Positions 42,513-45,746 of a DNA stretch of 64,000 nucleotides are shown here, in pieces. The notes under the pieces were generated by a model. It was not told the DNA's origin. It was given only the letters and a program-made list of their open reading frames with translations, and searched no databases. Origin of the DNA: a virus; IMG/VR virus record IMGVR_UViG_3300032246_001180, positions 1 through 64,000 of that record. The stretch is one strand, 5' to 3'. The position numbers and the translations under genes were made by a program. How positions within the stretch are numbered: position 1 is the first letter of the stretch; each line of letters starts with the position of its first letter.

Positions 42513-42541
42513 TTGACATTTAAGAAAATATCCTATATACT
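42513..42541 (+). promoter_or_regulatory. Sigma70 promoter with predicted +1 at the ATG of leader 2
   Basis: TTGACA-17-TATACT; AT-rich upstream region; ATG begins 7 nt after the -10. Confidence 0.8.
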
Positions 42542-42799: not shown

Positions 42800-42873
42800 T
42801 GGGACATTGTGTAGTGGTAGCACAGCAGACTTTGACTCTGTTAGTCTAGGTTCGATTCCTAGTGTCCCTGCCA
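42800..42873 (+). tRNA. tRNA-Gln (TTG)
   Basis: GCAGA-ct TTG ac-TCTGT; GGTTCGATTCC; CCA. Confidence 0.9.
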
Positions 42874-42878
42874 AAAAT

Positions 42879-42970
42879 GGAAGGTAATGCAGCGGGGTTG
42901 GTCCTGCGACTGGCCTTGAAAACCAGGTTCTGAGAAATCGGATGGGGTTCGACTCCTCTGCCTTCCACCA
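42879..42970 (+). tRNA. tRNA-Ser (TGA)
   Basis: GGAAGGT/GCCTTCC; ct TGA aa; long variable arm; CCA. Confidence 0.88.
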
Positions 42971-43095
42971 TATAAAAGCTCTTTGTGTAACTACAATGGA
43001 ACACCGAAATACTTGTCAATGTCGACCACGAACAAGGACCGGCCATGAAGAAGGGGTTATGTTCGGTTCAATTCCGTCAGAGAGCTTCTATATGG
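42968..43095 (+). ncRNA. Stem-enclosed structured RNA A (unknown)
   Basis: CCATATAAAAGCTCTTTG / CAGAGAGCTTCTATATGG 18-bp stem; internal CGG-TTCAATT-CCG T-loop. Confidence 0.55.
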
Positions 43096-43182
43096 GAGGG
43101 TTGGGTGAGTGGTTAAACCAGCGGTTTGCTAAACCGTCATCCAGAAATGGGTGCATCAGTTCGAATCTGATACCCTCCGCCA
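43095..43182 (+). tRNA. tRNA-Ser (GCT)
   Basis: GGAGGGT/ACCCTCC; GCGGT-tt GCT aa-ACCGT; long arm; CCA. Confidence 0.9.
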
Positions 43183-43187
43183 ATTTT

Positions 43188-43262
43188 CTCGCCATCGTTC
43201 AACGGATAGGACAGCATTCTTCTAAAGTGCGAATGGGGGTTCGATTCCCTCTGGCGAGGCCA
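43188..43262 (+). tRNA. tRNA-Arg (TCT)
   Basis: CTCGCCA/TGGCGAG; GCATT-ct TCT aa-AGTGC. Confidence 0.88.
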
Positions 43263-43268
43263 ATTTGT

Positions 43269-43345
43269 GTGGGCGTGCAGCTGAATGGTTAGGCACCGGA
43301 TTGCAAATCCGTATTATGCAGGTTCGAATCCTGTCGCCCACTCCA
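43269..43345 (+). tRNA. tRNA-Cys (GCA)
   Basis: GTGGGCG/CGCCCAC; U73; tt GCA aa. Confidence 0.9.
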
Positions 43346-43382
43346 AGACTGTTGTATTTTTACAACACATCGAAAATAGTGC

Positions 43383-43452
43383 TTGACTATTTCTGTGGTT
43401 CGTGTAGAATACGTTCTATCGATTGAGAAATTAATCGATTCTTTAAAAATTT
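43383..43452 (+). promoter_or_regulatory. Internal sigma70 promoter with hairpin and boxA-like element
   Basis: TTGACT-16-TAGAAT; ATCGATT..AATCGAT hairpin; TTCTTTAAAAATTT. Confidence 0.6.
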
Positions 43453-43467
43453 GATGTAGTTTTTGAT

Positions 43468-43543
43468 GCACCTATCGTCTAACGGTTAGGACGCTGCCCT
43501 TTCAAGGCGGAAACGTAGGGTTCGATTCCCTCTAGGTGTACCA
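43468..43543 (+). tRNA. tRNA-Glu (TTC)
   Basis: GCACCTA/TAGGTGT; CTGCC-ct TTC aa-GGCGG. Confidence 0.88.
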
Positions 43544-43758
43544 TACTAAAACATATTGGGTTACCAACTCCAGTAGGTACCTAGGAGAGATAATATCTGT
43601 GGCCGCACAGACTCTCGCTAGTAGTACATGAAGCAATCCGACTGTGCTGGAATCAGTTGAACCGTAATGTGGAAGTTGTCTTATCGGTAGACGAAACCGT
43701 GAGAAGCCAGATGAAGTTCTGGAACGACAACGACACCCCAATGTGTTTTAGTATGGTA
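43539..43758 (+). ncRNA. Stem-enclosed structured RNA B (unknown, about 220 nt)
   Basis: 22-bp closing stem TACCATACTAAAACATATTGGG / CCCAATGTGTTTTAGTATGGTA; several internal hairpins. Confidence 0.6.
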
Positions 43759-43780
43759 TTTTTTAAACAAGGAGAAAGTA

Positions 43781-43822
43781 ATGAAACGAAAATTAAAACC
43801 TCGAAAGATTATGGGGGTATAA
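43781..43822 (+). CDS. Lys/Arg-rich 13-aa micro-ORF overlapping tRNA-Lys
   Basis: AAGGAGA SD; MKRKLKPRKIMGV. Confidence 0.45.
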   Translation: MKRKLKPRKIMGV

Positions 43823-43887
43823 CTTAACGGCTAAAGTAGTAGGCTTTTAACCTATTAATCAGAGTTCGATTCTCTGTACCCCTACCA
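43813..43887 (+). tRNA. tRNA-Lys (TTT)
   Basis: GGGGGTA/TACCCCT; GTAGG-ct TTT aa-CCTAT. Confidence 0.9.
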
Positions 43888-43982
43888 TATAAAAACACTC
43901 TAAACTGGACGCAGGTTCTATGAAGCAAGACCTCGGGGTCATGTCCGAGAAGGTGTGGAGAATGAGAGTGTTTCTATATGGT
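43884..43982 (+). ncRNA. Stem-enclosed structured RNA C (unknown)
   Basis: ACCATATAAAAACACTCT / AGAGTGTTTCTATATGGT 18-bp stem with one A-C mismatch. Confidence 0.55.
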
Positions 43983-44054
43983 GATGTAGCACAACGGTAG
44001 TGCATCTGCTTCATACGCAGGAGGTTAGTGGCTCGATTCCACTCATCACCACCA
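43980..44054 (+). tRNA. tRNA-Met (CAT), probably elongator
   Basis: GGTGATG/CATCACC; tt CAT ac loop. Confidence 0.8.
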
Positions 44055-44060
44055 GATTTT

Positions 44061-44135
44061 GCCCCGTTAATATAACGGCTATTATGCCCGCCTGTCCAGC
44101 GGAGAACAGGAGTTCGACTCTCCTACGGGGCGCCA
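44061..44135 (+). tRNA. tRNA-Asp (GTC)
   Basis: GCCCCGT/ACGGGGC; G73; ct GTC ca. Confidence 0.87.
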
Positions 44136-45272: not shown

Positions 45273-45746
45273 ATGCGTAAATTAAATTTAGATGAAGTCA
45301 TTTCGTTTATCGAACAACAATCTCCAGAAAGTAAAGTTTATATTGGTTGTGATTCAGAGCGAGTTATTGTTGACGGCGTACCTTATGCTGATTATGTTCT
45401 TGCAATTGTAGTACACATCAATGGCAACAATGGTTGCAAATTATTTGGTGAAGTTAGTAGAGAAAGAGATTACGACCAGAAAAGAAACAAGCCTAGATAT
45501 AGGTTGATGAATGAAGTTTACAAGGTTTCAGAATTATATTTAAACCTTGTTAAAGTTTTAGTTGACCGTGATATTCAAGTTCACCTAGATATTAATCCAG
45601 ATGAAATGCACGGTTCATCTTGTGTTATCAATGAAGCGATTGGCTATATTAAAGGAACTTGCAATGTAATACCTCTGGTTAAACCAGAAGCGTTTGCGGC
45701 CTCTTATGCAGCTGACCGTTTTAAAGGACTAAAAAAGGCAGCTTGA
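45273..45746 (+). CDS. RNase H-like YkuK (DUF458) family protein
   Basis: YIGCDS; RLMNEV; VHLDIN; KPEAFAASYAADR. Confidence 0.75.
   Translation: MRKLNLDEVISFIEQQSPESKVYIGCDSERVIVDGVPYADYVLAIVVHINGNNGCKLFGEVSRERDYDQKRNKPRYRLMNEVYKVSELYLNLVKVLVDRDIQVHLDINPDEMHGSSCVINEAIGYIKGTCNVIPLVKPEAFAASYAADRFKGLKKAA

What the first reader, a model, noticed from the sequence alone, without database searches (positions are those of the whole stretch)
42968..43982. Family of three structured RNAs enclosed by related long stems between tRNAs
Seen: elements A (42968-43095), B (43539-43758) and C (43884-43982) are each closed by an 18-22 bp helix that starts in the CCA of the upstream tRNA (CCATA.../...TATGG). 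A and C share an A-C mismatch at the same position (CCATATA[A]AA / TT[C]TATATGG). The interiors differ in size but all contain ATGAAG (A catgaagaa; B catgaagca and gatgaagtt; C tatgaagca), mostly in hairpin loops, similar to the tRNA-Phe loop CTGAAGA. Inference: RNase III-type processing stems that release unknown small RNAs, possibly tRNA mimics or nuclease decoys.
Basis: partly seen in the sequence, partly recalled or inferred. Interest (0 to 1): 0.75.

Follow-up and report, generated by a model that had tools for sequence, protein, structure and literature searches.

The report
Stem-caged small RNAs between phage tRNAs
Three spacers in this lake phage's tRNA operons are genes for folded small RNAs held in one shared, conserved 18-base-pair hairpin "socket" that starts at the CCA end of the preceding tRNA; hundreds of related phages use the same socket for over a hundred different RNA inserts, and I found no published or Rfam description of it.

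Summary
Elements A (42968-43095), B (43539-43758) and C (43884-43982) each fold with a 17-22 bp closing helix. The helix starts in the CCA of the upstream tRNA and ends in the first bases of the next tRNA.

They belong to a large family confined to phages:
- 258 distinct copies in 165 IMG/VR loci of uncultured freshwater T4-like phages.
- Only 1 hit in 185,579 bacterial and archaeal genomes, and that hit is a phage tRNA fragment.

The stem sequence is conserved (CCAUAUAAAAACACAUU / AGUGUGUUUCUAUAUGG, with an A·C mismatch at pair 8). It shows compensatory changes and a clear sense-strand RNA signature: G·U pairs far outnumber A·C mismatches, and no copy is inverted.

The interiors fall into at least 134 unrelated sequence clusters. 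The A, B and C families each show internal covariation. The same tRNA junction carries many different interiors, or an empty hairpin, in related phages.

The commonest interior motif is a tRNA T-loop, not ATGAAG. AUGAAGYA recurs in a few cargo families and in these phages' two-piece tmRNAs.

No Rfam family matches A, B or C. I think tRNA-processing enzymes most likely release these RNAs; RNase III is the main rival. What the inserts do is unknown.

Earlier notes of this scan describe the same stem family on other genomes.

The parts
42513..42541 (+). Promoter-like site (TTGACA-17-TATACT) of the first tRNA operon, which contains element A
   Evidence: 11 of 12 consensus matches. This is a consensus match only.
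42879..42970 (+). tRNA-Ser(UGA)-like RNA whose CCA (42968-42970) forms the first 3 bp of the stem of A
   Evidence: tRNA-Sec model 36.8 bits (gathering score 47). It is conserved at 83-95% in 17 related loci. ARAGORN does not call it.
42968..42985 (+). Element A, 5' arm of the closing stem (A.C mismatch at 42975)
42986..43077 (+). Element A cargo: structured interior with AUGAAG at 43045-43050 and a T-loop-like GGUUCAAUUCC at about 43064-43075
   Evidence: 5-member family (L176, L090, L120, L175) in which 9 predicted pairs keep pairing through changes on both sides. locate the motifs.
43078..43095 (+). Element A, 3' arm; its last G is nt 1 of tRNA-Ser(GCU)
43383..43410 (+). Promoter-like site (TTGACT-16-TAGAAT) of the second tRNA operon, which contains B and C
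43468..43543 (+). tRNA-Glu(UUC), whose ACCA starts the stem of B
43539..43560 (+). Element B, 5' arm (22 nt, no mismatch at pair 8)
43561..43736 (+). Element B cargo: a conserved multi-helix RNA of about 176 nt with conserved blocks GGGUUACC..CCAGUAGGU, ACAYGAAR, GCUGGA and GUAAUGUG
   Evidence: 8-member alignment with 15 compensated pairs; nhmmer homologues in L018, L006, L176, L141, L043, L058, L112.
43737..43758 (+). Element B, 3' arm
43813..43887 (+). tRNA-Lys(UUU), whose ACCA starts the stem of C
43884..43901 (+). Element C, 5' arm (A.C mismatch at 43892)
43902..43964 (+). Element C cargo: invariant AACUGGACGCAGG, then UAUGAAGCAAGA, then a covarying hairpin CUCGG..CCGAG
   Evidence: 10 compensated pairs; 11-member cluster, found after six different tRNAs.
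43965..43982 (+). Element C, 3' arm; G43980-G43981 are nt 1-2 of tRNA-Met

Best explanation
A, B and C are three members of a phage-specific family of 'stem-caged' RNA cassettes.

Where they sit. Each cassette fills the spacer between a mature CCA 3' end and the next RNase P site in the tRNA operons of uncultured freshwater T4-like phages. The CCA end can belong to a tRNA or, in relatives, to a two-piece tmRNA acceptor piece or a GOLLD RNA.

What is shown. The module is a conserved 17-18 bp helix that is weak in its lower half: the lower half is A-U only and usually has a mismatch at pair 8. The helix folds in the sense-strand RNA and encloses an insert that ranges from a 3-nt loop ('empty socket') to about 280 nt.

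What is inferred.
- The helix keeps the insert from disturbing the folding of the flanking tRNAs.
- It brings the two processing sites together. Ordinary tRNA maturation then frees the insert as a small RNA with base-paired, exonuclease-resistant ends. That maturation is RNase P at the 3' boundary and an endonucleolytic cut plus trimming at the CCA.
- The inserts are independent, selected, structured RNAs that phages exchange like cassettes. Many carry a tRNA-type T-arm next to the 3' arm. A, B and C share the AUGAAGYA block found in the phages' own tmRNA acceptor pieces. They probably act on the translation or tRNA machinery of the host. What each one does is not known.
For: Family size and restriction to phages:
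- 258 distinct elements in 165 of 281 fetched loci.
- The exact two-arm pattern is in at least 120 IMG/VR stretches. It occurs in 1 of 185,579 GTDB species genomes, and that hit is a 1.5-kb contig with nine tRNAs.
- In the window's own genome the arms occur only in the tRNA array.

Exact registration with tRNA ends:
- 101 of 102 tRNA-adjacent copies start exactly at C74 of the CCA.
- The 3' GG is nt 1-2 of the next tRNA in 50 of 76.

RNA-level selection:
- Stem pairing is 97.5% against 88.7% when the 3' arms are shuffled (maximum 89.9% in 1000 shuffles). Changes on both sides keep pairs 6, 7, 11, 15 and 18.
- Outside pair 8 there are 108 G.U pairs against 14 A.C or C.A mismatches.
- No copy is in reverse orientation.
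- The sense strand folds more stably than the antisense strand in 73 of 97 cluster representatives, p about 7.5e-8.

Cargo is selected:
- Compensated pairs: 9 in the A family, 10 in C, 15 in B.
- The T-loop motif GGTTCRA is in 15 of 97 interior clusters against 0.75 expected, usually 6-11 nt before the 3' arm. The MFE folds of these elements resemble cloverleaves.

Cassette behaviour:
- The Lys-Met and Lys-His junctions each carry a dozen or more unrelated interiors between identical stems.
- Empty hairpins of 37-44 nt exist. Relatives without an element have 4-7 nt spacers.
- The C cargo is found after Lys, Arg, Gly, Thr, Glu and Val tRNAs.

Same architecture in a spacer known to be removed by tRNA-processing enzymes:
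- The intervening sequences of two-piece tmRNAs in related loci are also closed stems. The inner stem in L098 equals the family consensus.
- PMC11915505 states that permuted tmRNA transcripts are cleaved by tRNA-processing enzymes.

Operon context:
- A, B and C lie inside promoter-driven tRNA operons and have no promoter-like or terminator-like site of their own.
Against: - No expression or end-mapping data exist, so release and stability are inferred.
- A strong helix that abuts the RNase P site and sequesters the CCA could hinder rather than help RNase P and the 3' exonucleases. That would favour a first cut by a double-strand-specific enzyme.
- The near-invariant stem sequence goes beyond what pairing alone needs and suggests a sequence-reading factor I could not identify.
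- My harvest required at most 3 mismatches per 14-nt arm, which inflates the apparent conservation.
- The sequences are phylogenetically related, so the counts are not independent events.
- The function of the cargo is unknown.
Confidence: 0.55

Rival explanations
1. RNase III processing stems. The 17-22 bp helices are substrates of host RNase III. RNase III cuts both strands, which separates the flanking tRNAs and releases the interior with a shortened stem and 2-nt 3' overhangs. The remaining few bases are then trimmed at the tRNA ends.
For: - The helix length (17-22 bp) is in the range of bacterial RNase III substrates.
- A conserved internal imperfection at pair 8 recalls the internal loops of phage T7 RNase III sites (own knowledge).
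- T4 species 1 RNA from the T4 tRNA cluster is a classical in-vitro RNase III substrate (own knowledge; not checked in the held library).
- A helix that sequesters the CCA and the -1/+1 bases may need to be opened first.
Against: - The stem ends coincide with the mature tRNA ends to the nucleotide, which RNase III cutting inside the helix does not require.
- The lower 11 pairs are A-U rich with a mismatch. Total stability of an empty hairpin is only about -13 kcal/mol.
- The phage encodes no RNase III of its own.
- The analogous tmRNA intervening sequences are attributed to tRNA-processing enzymes.
Confidence: 0.2
2. DNA-level mobile element. The arms are terminal inverted repeats or recombination sites of a miniature mobile or homing cassette that targets the 3' end of tRNA genes. 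In this view the RNA structure is a by-product.
For: - Close relatives differ in presence or absence of the element.
- Different interiors sit between identical arms at one junction, and the same cargo sits at different junctions.
- tRNA order is heavily shuffled among relatives.
- T4-type phages are known to shuffle modules at short conserved motifs and by homing endonucleases (PMC2988022 was listed but not read in detail).
Against: - The elements are confined to tRNA arrays, with no dispersed copies in the 168-kb genome.
- Orientation is always sense, and the cargo is never inverted.
- G.U pairs far outnumber A.C mismatches, and the sense fold is more stable.
- No target-site duplication is seen at filled versus empty junctions.
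- No transposase or integrase is evident near the array.
- The cargo has its own covariation.
- Exchange by ordinary homologous recombination at the arms is compatible with the main explanation.
Confidence: 0.1
3. Pure spacer hairpins. The stem is a tRNA-precursor processing or insulating hairpin, and the interiors are neutral filler or decaying tRNA remnants with no function of their own.
For: - Empty hairpins exist at the same junctions.
- Interior diversity is very high: 134 clusters among 258 copies.
- The T-arm-bearing interiors could be decayed tRNAs.
Against: - The A, B and C cargo families are conserved across phages whose flanking tRNAs differ, and they keep their helices through compensatory changes.
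- The interiors match tRNAs only in the T-arm, not along their length.
- B is an RNA of about 180 nt with several invariant blocks.
Confidence: 0.1

Closest known systems
Intervening sequence (IVS) of circularly permuted two-piece tmRNA genes (Rfam RF04321, RF01849-RF01851; PMC11915505)
   Same: It lies between an encoded CCA 3' end and the 5' G of the next tRNA-like domain and is removed by tRNA-processing enzymes. In phages related to this one the IVS is also a closed stem, and in L098 it uses the family's inner stem sequence.
   Different: A, B and C lie between ordinary tRNAs, not between tmRNA pieces. As far as I found, the IVS is described as discarded. It is not described as a conserved socket carrying selected RNAs.
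Phage T4 stable RNAs rnaC and rnaD (species 1 and 2) in the T4 tRNA cluster
   Same: They are small stable RNAs of unknown function, co-transcribed with phage tRNAs directly after a tRNA. rnaC has a tRNA-type T-arm near its 3' end, like many cargoes here.
   Different: There is no sequence similarity. There is no 17-18 bp conserved closing stem that starts in the preceding CCA. T4 has one fixed pair, not a swappable repertoire.
GOLLD and ROOL large ornate RNAs of phages, found next to tRNA islands (RF02032; PMC12286853)
   Same: They are phage non-coding RNAs of unknown function embedded in tRNA arrays. A GOLLD RNA in related locus L023 ends in CACCA and runs directly into a stem-caged element.
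   Different: GOLLD and ROOL are single RNA families of 400-800 nt with their own folds. Here the shared part is only the closing stem, and the inserts are small and diverse. This genome has no GOLLD.
RNase III processing stems flanking 16S/23S rRNA and phage T7 early RNAs (own knowledge)
   Same: A long helix formed by sequences on either side of an RNA that is to be excised from a polycistronic precursor.
   Different: Here the helix boundaries coincide with tRNA ends. The stem sequence itself is conserved across unrelated cargoes. RNase III cleavage is untested.
Bacterial and phage Y RNAs (YrlA) with Ro/Rsr
   Same: A conserved closing stem plus a variable module that can mimic tRNA (own knowledge).
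   Different: The genome has no Ro/TROVE gene, and A, B and C have no Rfam match of any kind, Y-RNA families included. The T-arm lies next to the 3' strand of the stem, as in a normal tRNA, not in the permuted YrlA order.

Membership tests
Any Rfam 15 family | Covariance-model score at or above the gathering score | tested here: not met
   only tRNAs reach threshold. Even at E<=10 nothing covers A, B or C apart from an 11-nt tmRNA T-loop fragment at 43065-43075 (6.7 bits).
tRNA | Cloverleaf with a 7-bp acceptor stem, an anticodon arm with a 7-nt loop, and a free 3' end | tested here: not met
   ARAGORN and RF00005 do not call A, B or C. Some family members have a T-arm and four-way junctions, but with a 17-18 bp 'acceptor' stem and aberrant anticodon arms.
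T4 rnaC/rnaD stable RNAs | Sequence or structure homology to T4 species 1 or species 2 RNA | tested here: not met
   blastn with word size 7 against the window and 281 loci gave no hits. The folds differ.
T4 rnaC/rnaD stable RNAs | Small non-tRNA RNA gene inside a phage tRNA operon, directly after a tRNA | tested here: met
Two-piece tmRNA intervening sequence | Lies between the CCA of the acceptor piece and the 5' end of the coding piece | tested here: not met
   A, B and C lie between tRNAs. ARAGORN finds no tmRNA in the window. Relatives do have such intervening sequences, with similar stems.
Two-piece tmRNA intervening sequence | Excised by tRNA-processing enzymes | not testable with these tools
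   This needs RNA end mapping or in-vitro processing.
RNase III substrate | Double-stranded helix of about two turns that RNase III cleaves on both strands | not testable with these tools
   The helix length is compatible. Cleavage cannot be computed.
MITE-type mobile element | Terminal inverted repeats | tested here: met
MITE-type mobile element | Target-site duplication and copies dispersed through the genome in both orientations | tested here: not met
   No duplication at filled versus empty junctions. Copies occur only in the tRNA array. All copies are in sense orientation.
Y RNA / YrlA | Co-occurring Ro/Rsr (TROVE) protein | tested here: not met
   no PF05731 match in the 168-kb genome.
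Intrinsic terminator or attenuator | G+C-rich hairpin followed by a U tract | tested here: not met
   no plus-strand terminator-like site at A, B or C. The 3' arms run directly into the next tRNA.

The most novel reading that the evidence does not exclude
The conserved stem is a universal plug-in socket for a fast-turning-over pan-repertoire of phage accessory RNAs. There are at least 134 families, many of them tRNA or tmRNA look-alikes. They would be produced in tRNA-like amounts and would act as decoys or modulators of host tRNA-, tmRNA/SmpB- or ribosome-directed factors, including tRNA-targeting defence nucleases. This would be an RNA counterpart of the hypervariable protein 'accessory gene' islands of phages. 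The strong preference for the site after tRNA-Lys(UUU) would then reflect a link to the tRNA most often attacked by anticodon nucleases.
Probability: 0.25. Interest if true: 0.85.

Novelty: new variant of a known kind. Interest (0 to 1): 0.68.

Why it matters
Phage tRNA arrays are usually read as lists of tRNAs with meaningless spacers. Here the spacers hold a large, apparently uncatalogued class of structured RNAs that share one conserved hairpin scaffold.

If the reading holds, it gives three things:
- A simple sequence handle (two 14-17-nt arms) for mining hundreds of new phage small RNAs from metagenomes.
- A natural design rule for expressing stable foreign RNAs from tRNA operons.
- A set of tRNA-like and tmRNA-like RNAs that could be tested for roles in host takeover or counter-defence.

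It also links three things that have been described separately: small stable RNAs of T4, tmRNA intervening sequences, and GOLLD-type RNAs in tRNA islands.

Tried and rejected
- **Known RNA family.** Rfam at gathering score and at E<=10 finds nothing for A, B or C.
- **Relatives among cultured phages.** megablast and blastn of 42800-44100 hit only tRNAs. A 37-nt empty hairpin gave only chance-level hits.
- **Arms as processing stems around tRNAs, as in rRNA operons.** Only 2 of 76 downstream tRNAs have an element on both sides.
- **Late-promoter reading of TATAAAAA.** Rejected because arm variants that break it are compensated in the other arm.
- **Inversion by recombination between the arms.** No cargo is found in reverse orientation.
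- **Cargo as recent tRNA pseudogenes.** Only the T-arms match tRNAs.
- **Antisense targets of the invariant C block in the phage genome.** None found.
- **Phage-encoded RNase III or Ro.** Absent.
- **GOLLD in this genome.** Absent, although the control genomes for that search also gave no signal.
- **Cargo shared between tmRNA intervening sequences and tRNA spacers** (a claim in earlier scan notes). Not seen in my loci. One intervening-sequence cargo recurs only in another permuted tRNA-like gene.
- **ATGAAG as an anticodon-loop mimic.** Not supported by the consensus folds.
- **PF04308 RNase H-like gene travelling with the elements.** Inconclusive, because the fetched loci are short.
- **Literature.** Two searches timed out. 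The others found no description of the stems.
Full report
**Setting.** The window is the first 64 kb of a 168-kb IMG/VR virus record rated complete. Its DNA polymerase is about 51% identical to those of T4-like cyanomyophages. Positions 42.2-47.1 kb hold 24 ARAGORN tRNAs, one more tRNA seen only by Rfam, and one tRNA-Ser(UGA)-like RNA. Two sigma-70-like promoters (42513-42541 and 43383-43410) drive the stretch that holds the three elements. None of the elements has a promoter-like or terminator-like site of its own on the plus strand.

**Observation.** All three elements fold as described.
- A (42968-43095): 7 bp, an A·C mismatch, then 10 bp.
- B (43539-43758): 22 contiguous pairs.
- C (43884-43982): 8 bp, the same A·C mismatch, then 9 bp.
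- Z-scores are -3.1 to -5.5, and no shuffle folds as well.

Each 5' arm begins in the (A)CCA of the upstream RNA. The 3' arms of A and C end in nt 1 or nt 1-2 of the next tRNA. No Rfam family matches A, B or C, even at E<=10.

**A large family.** I fetched 80 related loci through the conserved ORF inside the array and more through arm patterns.
- Among 321 distinct inter-tRNA spacers of the first set, terminal pairing is bimodal. About 35 spacers are closed by 14-25 bp that start at the CCA. Most of these share one sequence: CCAUAU(A/U)(A/G)AA(A/G)CACAUU ... AGUGUGUUUC(U/A)AUAUGG.
- A systematic harvest gives 258 distinct elements in 165 of 281 loci.
- It occurs once in 185,579 GTDB species genomes. 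That hit is a 1.5-kb contig with nine tRNAs, binned into a Planktophila MAG, so it is a phage fragment.
- In the window's own genome the arms occur only at A, B and C.
- I found no homologues in 50,697 deposited phage records.

**The stem is an RNA-level feature.**
- Of the copies next to a detectable tRNA, 101 of 102 start exactly at C74. In 50 of 76 the terminal GG is nt 1-2 or nt 1 of the next tRNA.
- In 100 distinct arm pairs, 97.5% of positions are paired, against 88.7% after shuffling the 3' arms (maximum 89.9% in 1000 shuffles). Changes on both sides keep pairs 6, 7, 11, 15 and 18.
- Pair 8 is special: A·C in 86 of 147 copies, A-U in 27, G-C in 20, U·U in 8.
- Outside pair 8 there are 108 G·U pairs against 14 A·C or C·A mismatches.
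- No element lies in the opposite orientation to the tRNAs, and no cargo is inverted.
- The sense strand folds more stably than the antisense strand in 73 of 97 cluster representatives.
- The arms bracket spacers, not tRNAs: only 2 of 76 downstream tRNAs have an element on both sides.
- Caveats: the harvest allowed at most 3 mismatches per 14-nt arm, and the sequences are related by descent. The conservation is therefore overstated and the counts are not independent.

**The interiors.** They fall into 134 BLAST clusters, and sampling is not saturated (97 clusters at the first harvest).
- A has four homologues, with 9 predicted pairs kept through changes on both sides.
- C belongs to the largest cluster, with 11 members and 10 compensated pairs in the five aligned.
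- B has at least 7 homologues, 15 compensated pairs and several invariant blocks.
- The same cargo sits after different tRNAs in different phages. C follows Lys, Arg, Gly, Thr, Glu or Val.
- One junction (Lys-Met, Lys-His, Ser-Ser) carries many unrelated cargoes between identical stems, or an empty hairpin of 37-44 nt. In other relatives it is just a 4-7 nt spacer.
- More than half of the tRNA-adjacent copies follow tRNA-Lys(UUU): 100 of 177.

**Motifs.**
- The most enriched interior motif is the tRNA T-loop. GGTTCRA is in 15 of 97 clusters against 0.75 expected. It usually lies 6-11 nt before the 3' arm, and several of these elements fold into cloverleaf-like four-way junctions closed by the long stem. 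They match real tRNAs only in the T-arm.
In A and C it is conserved as RUGAAG, with single exceptions, and it sits in junctions. In B only one copy is conserved, as ACAYGAAR.
- A lead that came out of this work: the two-piece tmRNA acceptor pieces of related phages carry GUAUGAAGC about 22 nt before CUGGACGCGGG and the T-loop. AUGAAGYA is in 5 of 134 cargo clusters against 0.53 expected. C alone has both blocks (CUGGACGCAGG and UAUGAAGCAAGA), in swapped order. I could not turn this into a homology statement. Rfam tmRNA models do not score C.

**Related contexts.**
- In 14 related loci ARAGORN finds permuted tmRNAs. Their intervening sequences, between CCA and the 5' GGG, are also closed stems, and the inner stem in L098 is AAACACAUU/AGUGUGUUU, the family consensus. 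Permuted tmRNA transcripts are stated to be cut by tRNA-processing enzymes (PMC11915505).
- In L023 a GOLLD RNA (188.6 bits) ends in CACCA and runs into an element. GOLLD and ROOL are known to lie near tRNA islands (PMC12286853).
- T4 rnaC and rnaD occupy an analogous place, and rnaC has a T-arm. They share no sequence with the elements and have no long closing stem.

**Mechanism.**
- Shown: a conserved sense-strand RNA helix registered on tRNA ends, and selected, swappable structured inserts.
- Inferred: the helix isolates the insert and juxtaposes the CCA end and the RNase P site, so that normal tRNA maturation frees a stem-closed small RNA.
- I prefer this to RNase III for four reasons. The helix boundaries coincide with mature tRNA ends. 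The lower stem is deliberately weak: A-U only with a mismatch, and about -13 kcal/mol for a whole empty hairpin. The tmRNA intervening sequence is a precedent. The phage has no RNase III of its own.
- RNase III remains a serious rival, because a helix abutting the cleavage sites could hinder RNase P and the exonucleases.
- A purely DNA-level mobile element is unlikely given the strand signature, the confinement to arrays and the lack of target duplications. Exchange of cargo by recombination at the arms fits the data, however.
- What A, B and C do is unknown. Likeness to tRNA or tmRNA in part of the family makes the translation or tRNA machinery the most plausible target.

**Prior notes of this scan.** After forming my reading I looked them up. 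They report the same closing stem, including the A·C mismatch and T-loop-bearing inserts, on other phage genomes. They also gave me the tmRNA intervening-sequence lead, which I checked in my own loci. I did not reproduce their claim that identical cargoes occur in both tmRNA intervening sequences and tRNA spacers.

**Verdict.** This is a real RNA family restricted to phages, and as far as I could find it is undescribed. Its organisation, one conserved socket with many cargoes, is new. The general kind is known: small RNAs that ride in phage tRNA operons and are freed by tRNA processing.

Noticed in passing
window 42879-42970: A 92-nt class-II tRNA-Ser(UGA)-like RNA is missed by ARAGORN and by the Rfam tRNA model (tRNA-Sec model 36.8 bits, below threshold). 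By eye it has a C31.A39 mismatch. It is conserved at 83-95% in 17 related loci. It is 91% identical over about 78 nt to an unannotated stretch of Pseudomonas phage PHB09.
   Followed up: partly
L023:880-1345: GOLLD RNA (RF02032, 188.6 bits) with an embedded tRNA (944-1016) in a related phage. Its 3' end ...CACCA is followed directly by a stem-caged element (1351-1422). The same GOLLD 3' end precedes elements in L155 and L052.
   Followed up: partly
L023:1-2100: A dense RNA island with at least six stem-caged elements. It also has a repeated unit of about 45 nt (GTTCAAGTTCAATGGTCACACGCCCTTGCTTGAATTAGAAGTCGCCA at about 172-225 and 1432-1476) that ends in GCCA and precedes elements.
   Followed up: no
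window 45273-45746: The ORF inside the tRNA array is a PF04308 RNase H-like (YkuK/DUF458) protein (60 bits). Homologues lie in tRNA arrays of 331 related viral contigs. Whether it acts on the array RNAs is unknown.
   Followed up: partly
L120:10230-10450: An apparent circularly permuted tRNA-like gene: T-arm and 3' acceptor strand first, then a stem-closed spacer, then the 5' acceptor strand and D-arm. Its spacer cargo is 83% identical to the intervening sequence of the two-piece tmRNA in L098.
   Followed up: no
L098:13937-14332, L048:7103-7592 and 12 other loci: Related phages encode two-piece (permuted) tmRNAs with tags such as ANDERFALAA, ANDNTYALAA and a long ANVNKTVTVSGKN.KFSAR.AKEALAV. 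Their intervening sequences vary from 20 to about 115 nt and are closed stems.
   Followed up: partly
L210 (CAZQNP010000058.1): A 1478-bp contig in a 'Candidatus Planktophila' MAG consists of nine tRNA genes plus a stem-caged element after tRNA-Lys. It is almost certainly a mis-binned phage fragment.
   Followed up: yes
window 43271-43340: A tRNA found by Rfam (43.2 bits) but not by ARAGORN, lying between tRNA-Arg(UCU) and the second promoter.
   Followed up: no
L073, L019, L010, L008 Ser(UGA)-Ser(GCU) spacers: At the same junction where the window has element A, other relatives carry a small Shine-Dalgarno-led ORF for a hydrophobic peptide of about 30 aa instead. So tRNA spacers also host mini protein genes.
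   Followed up: no
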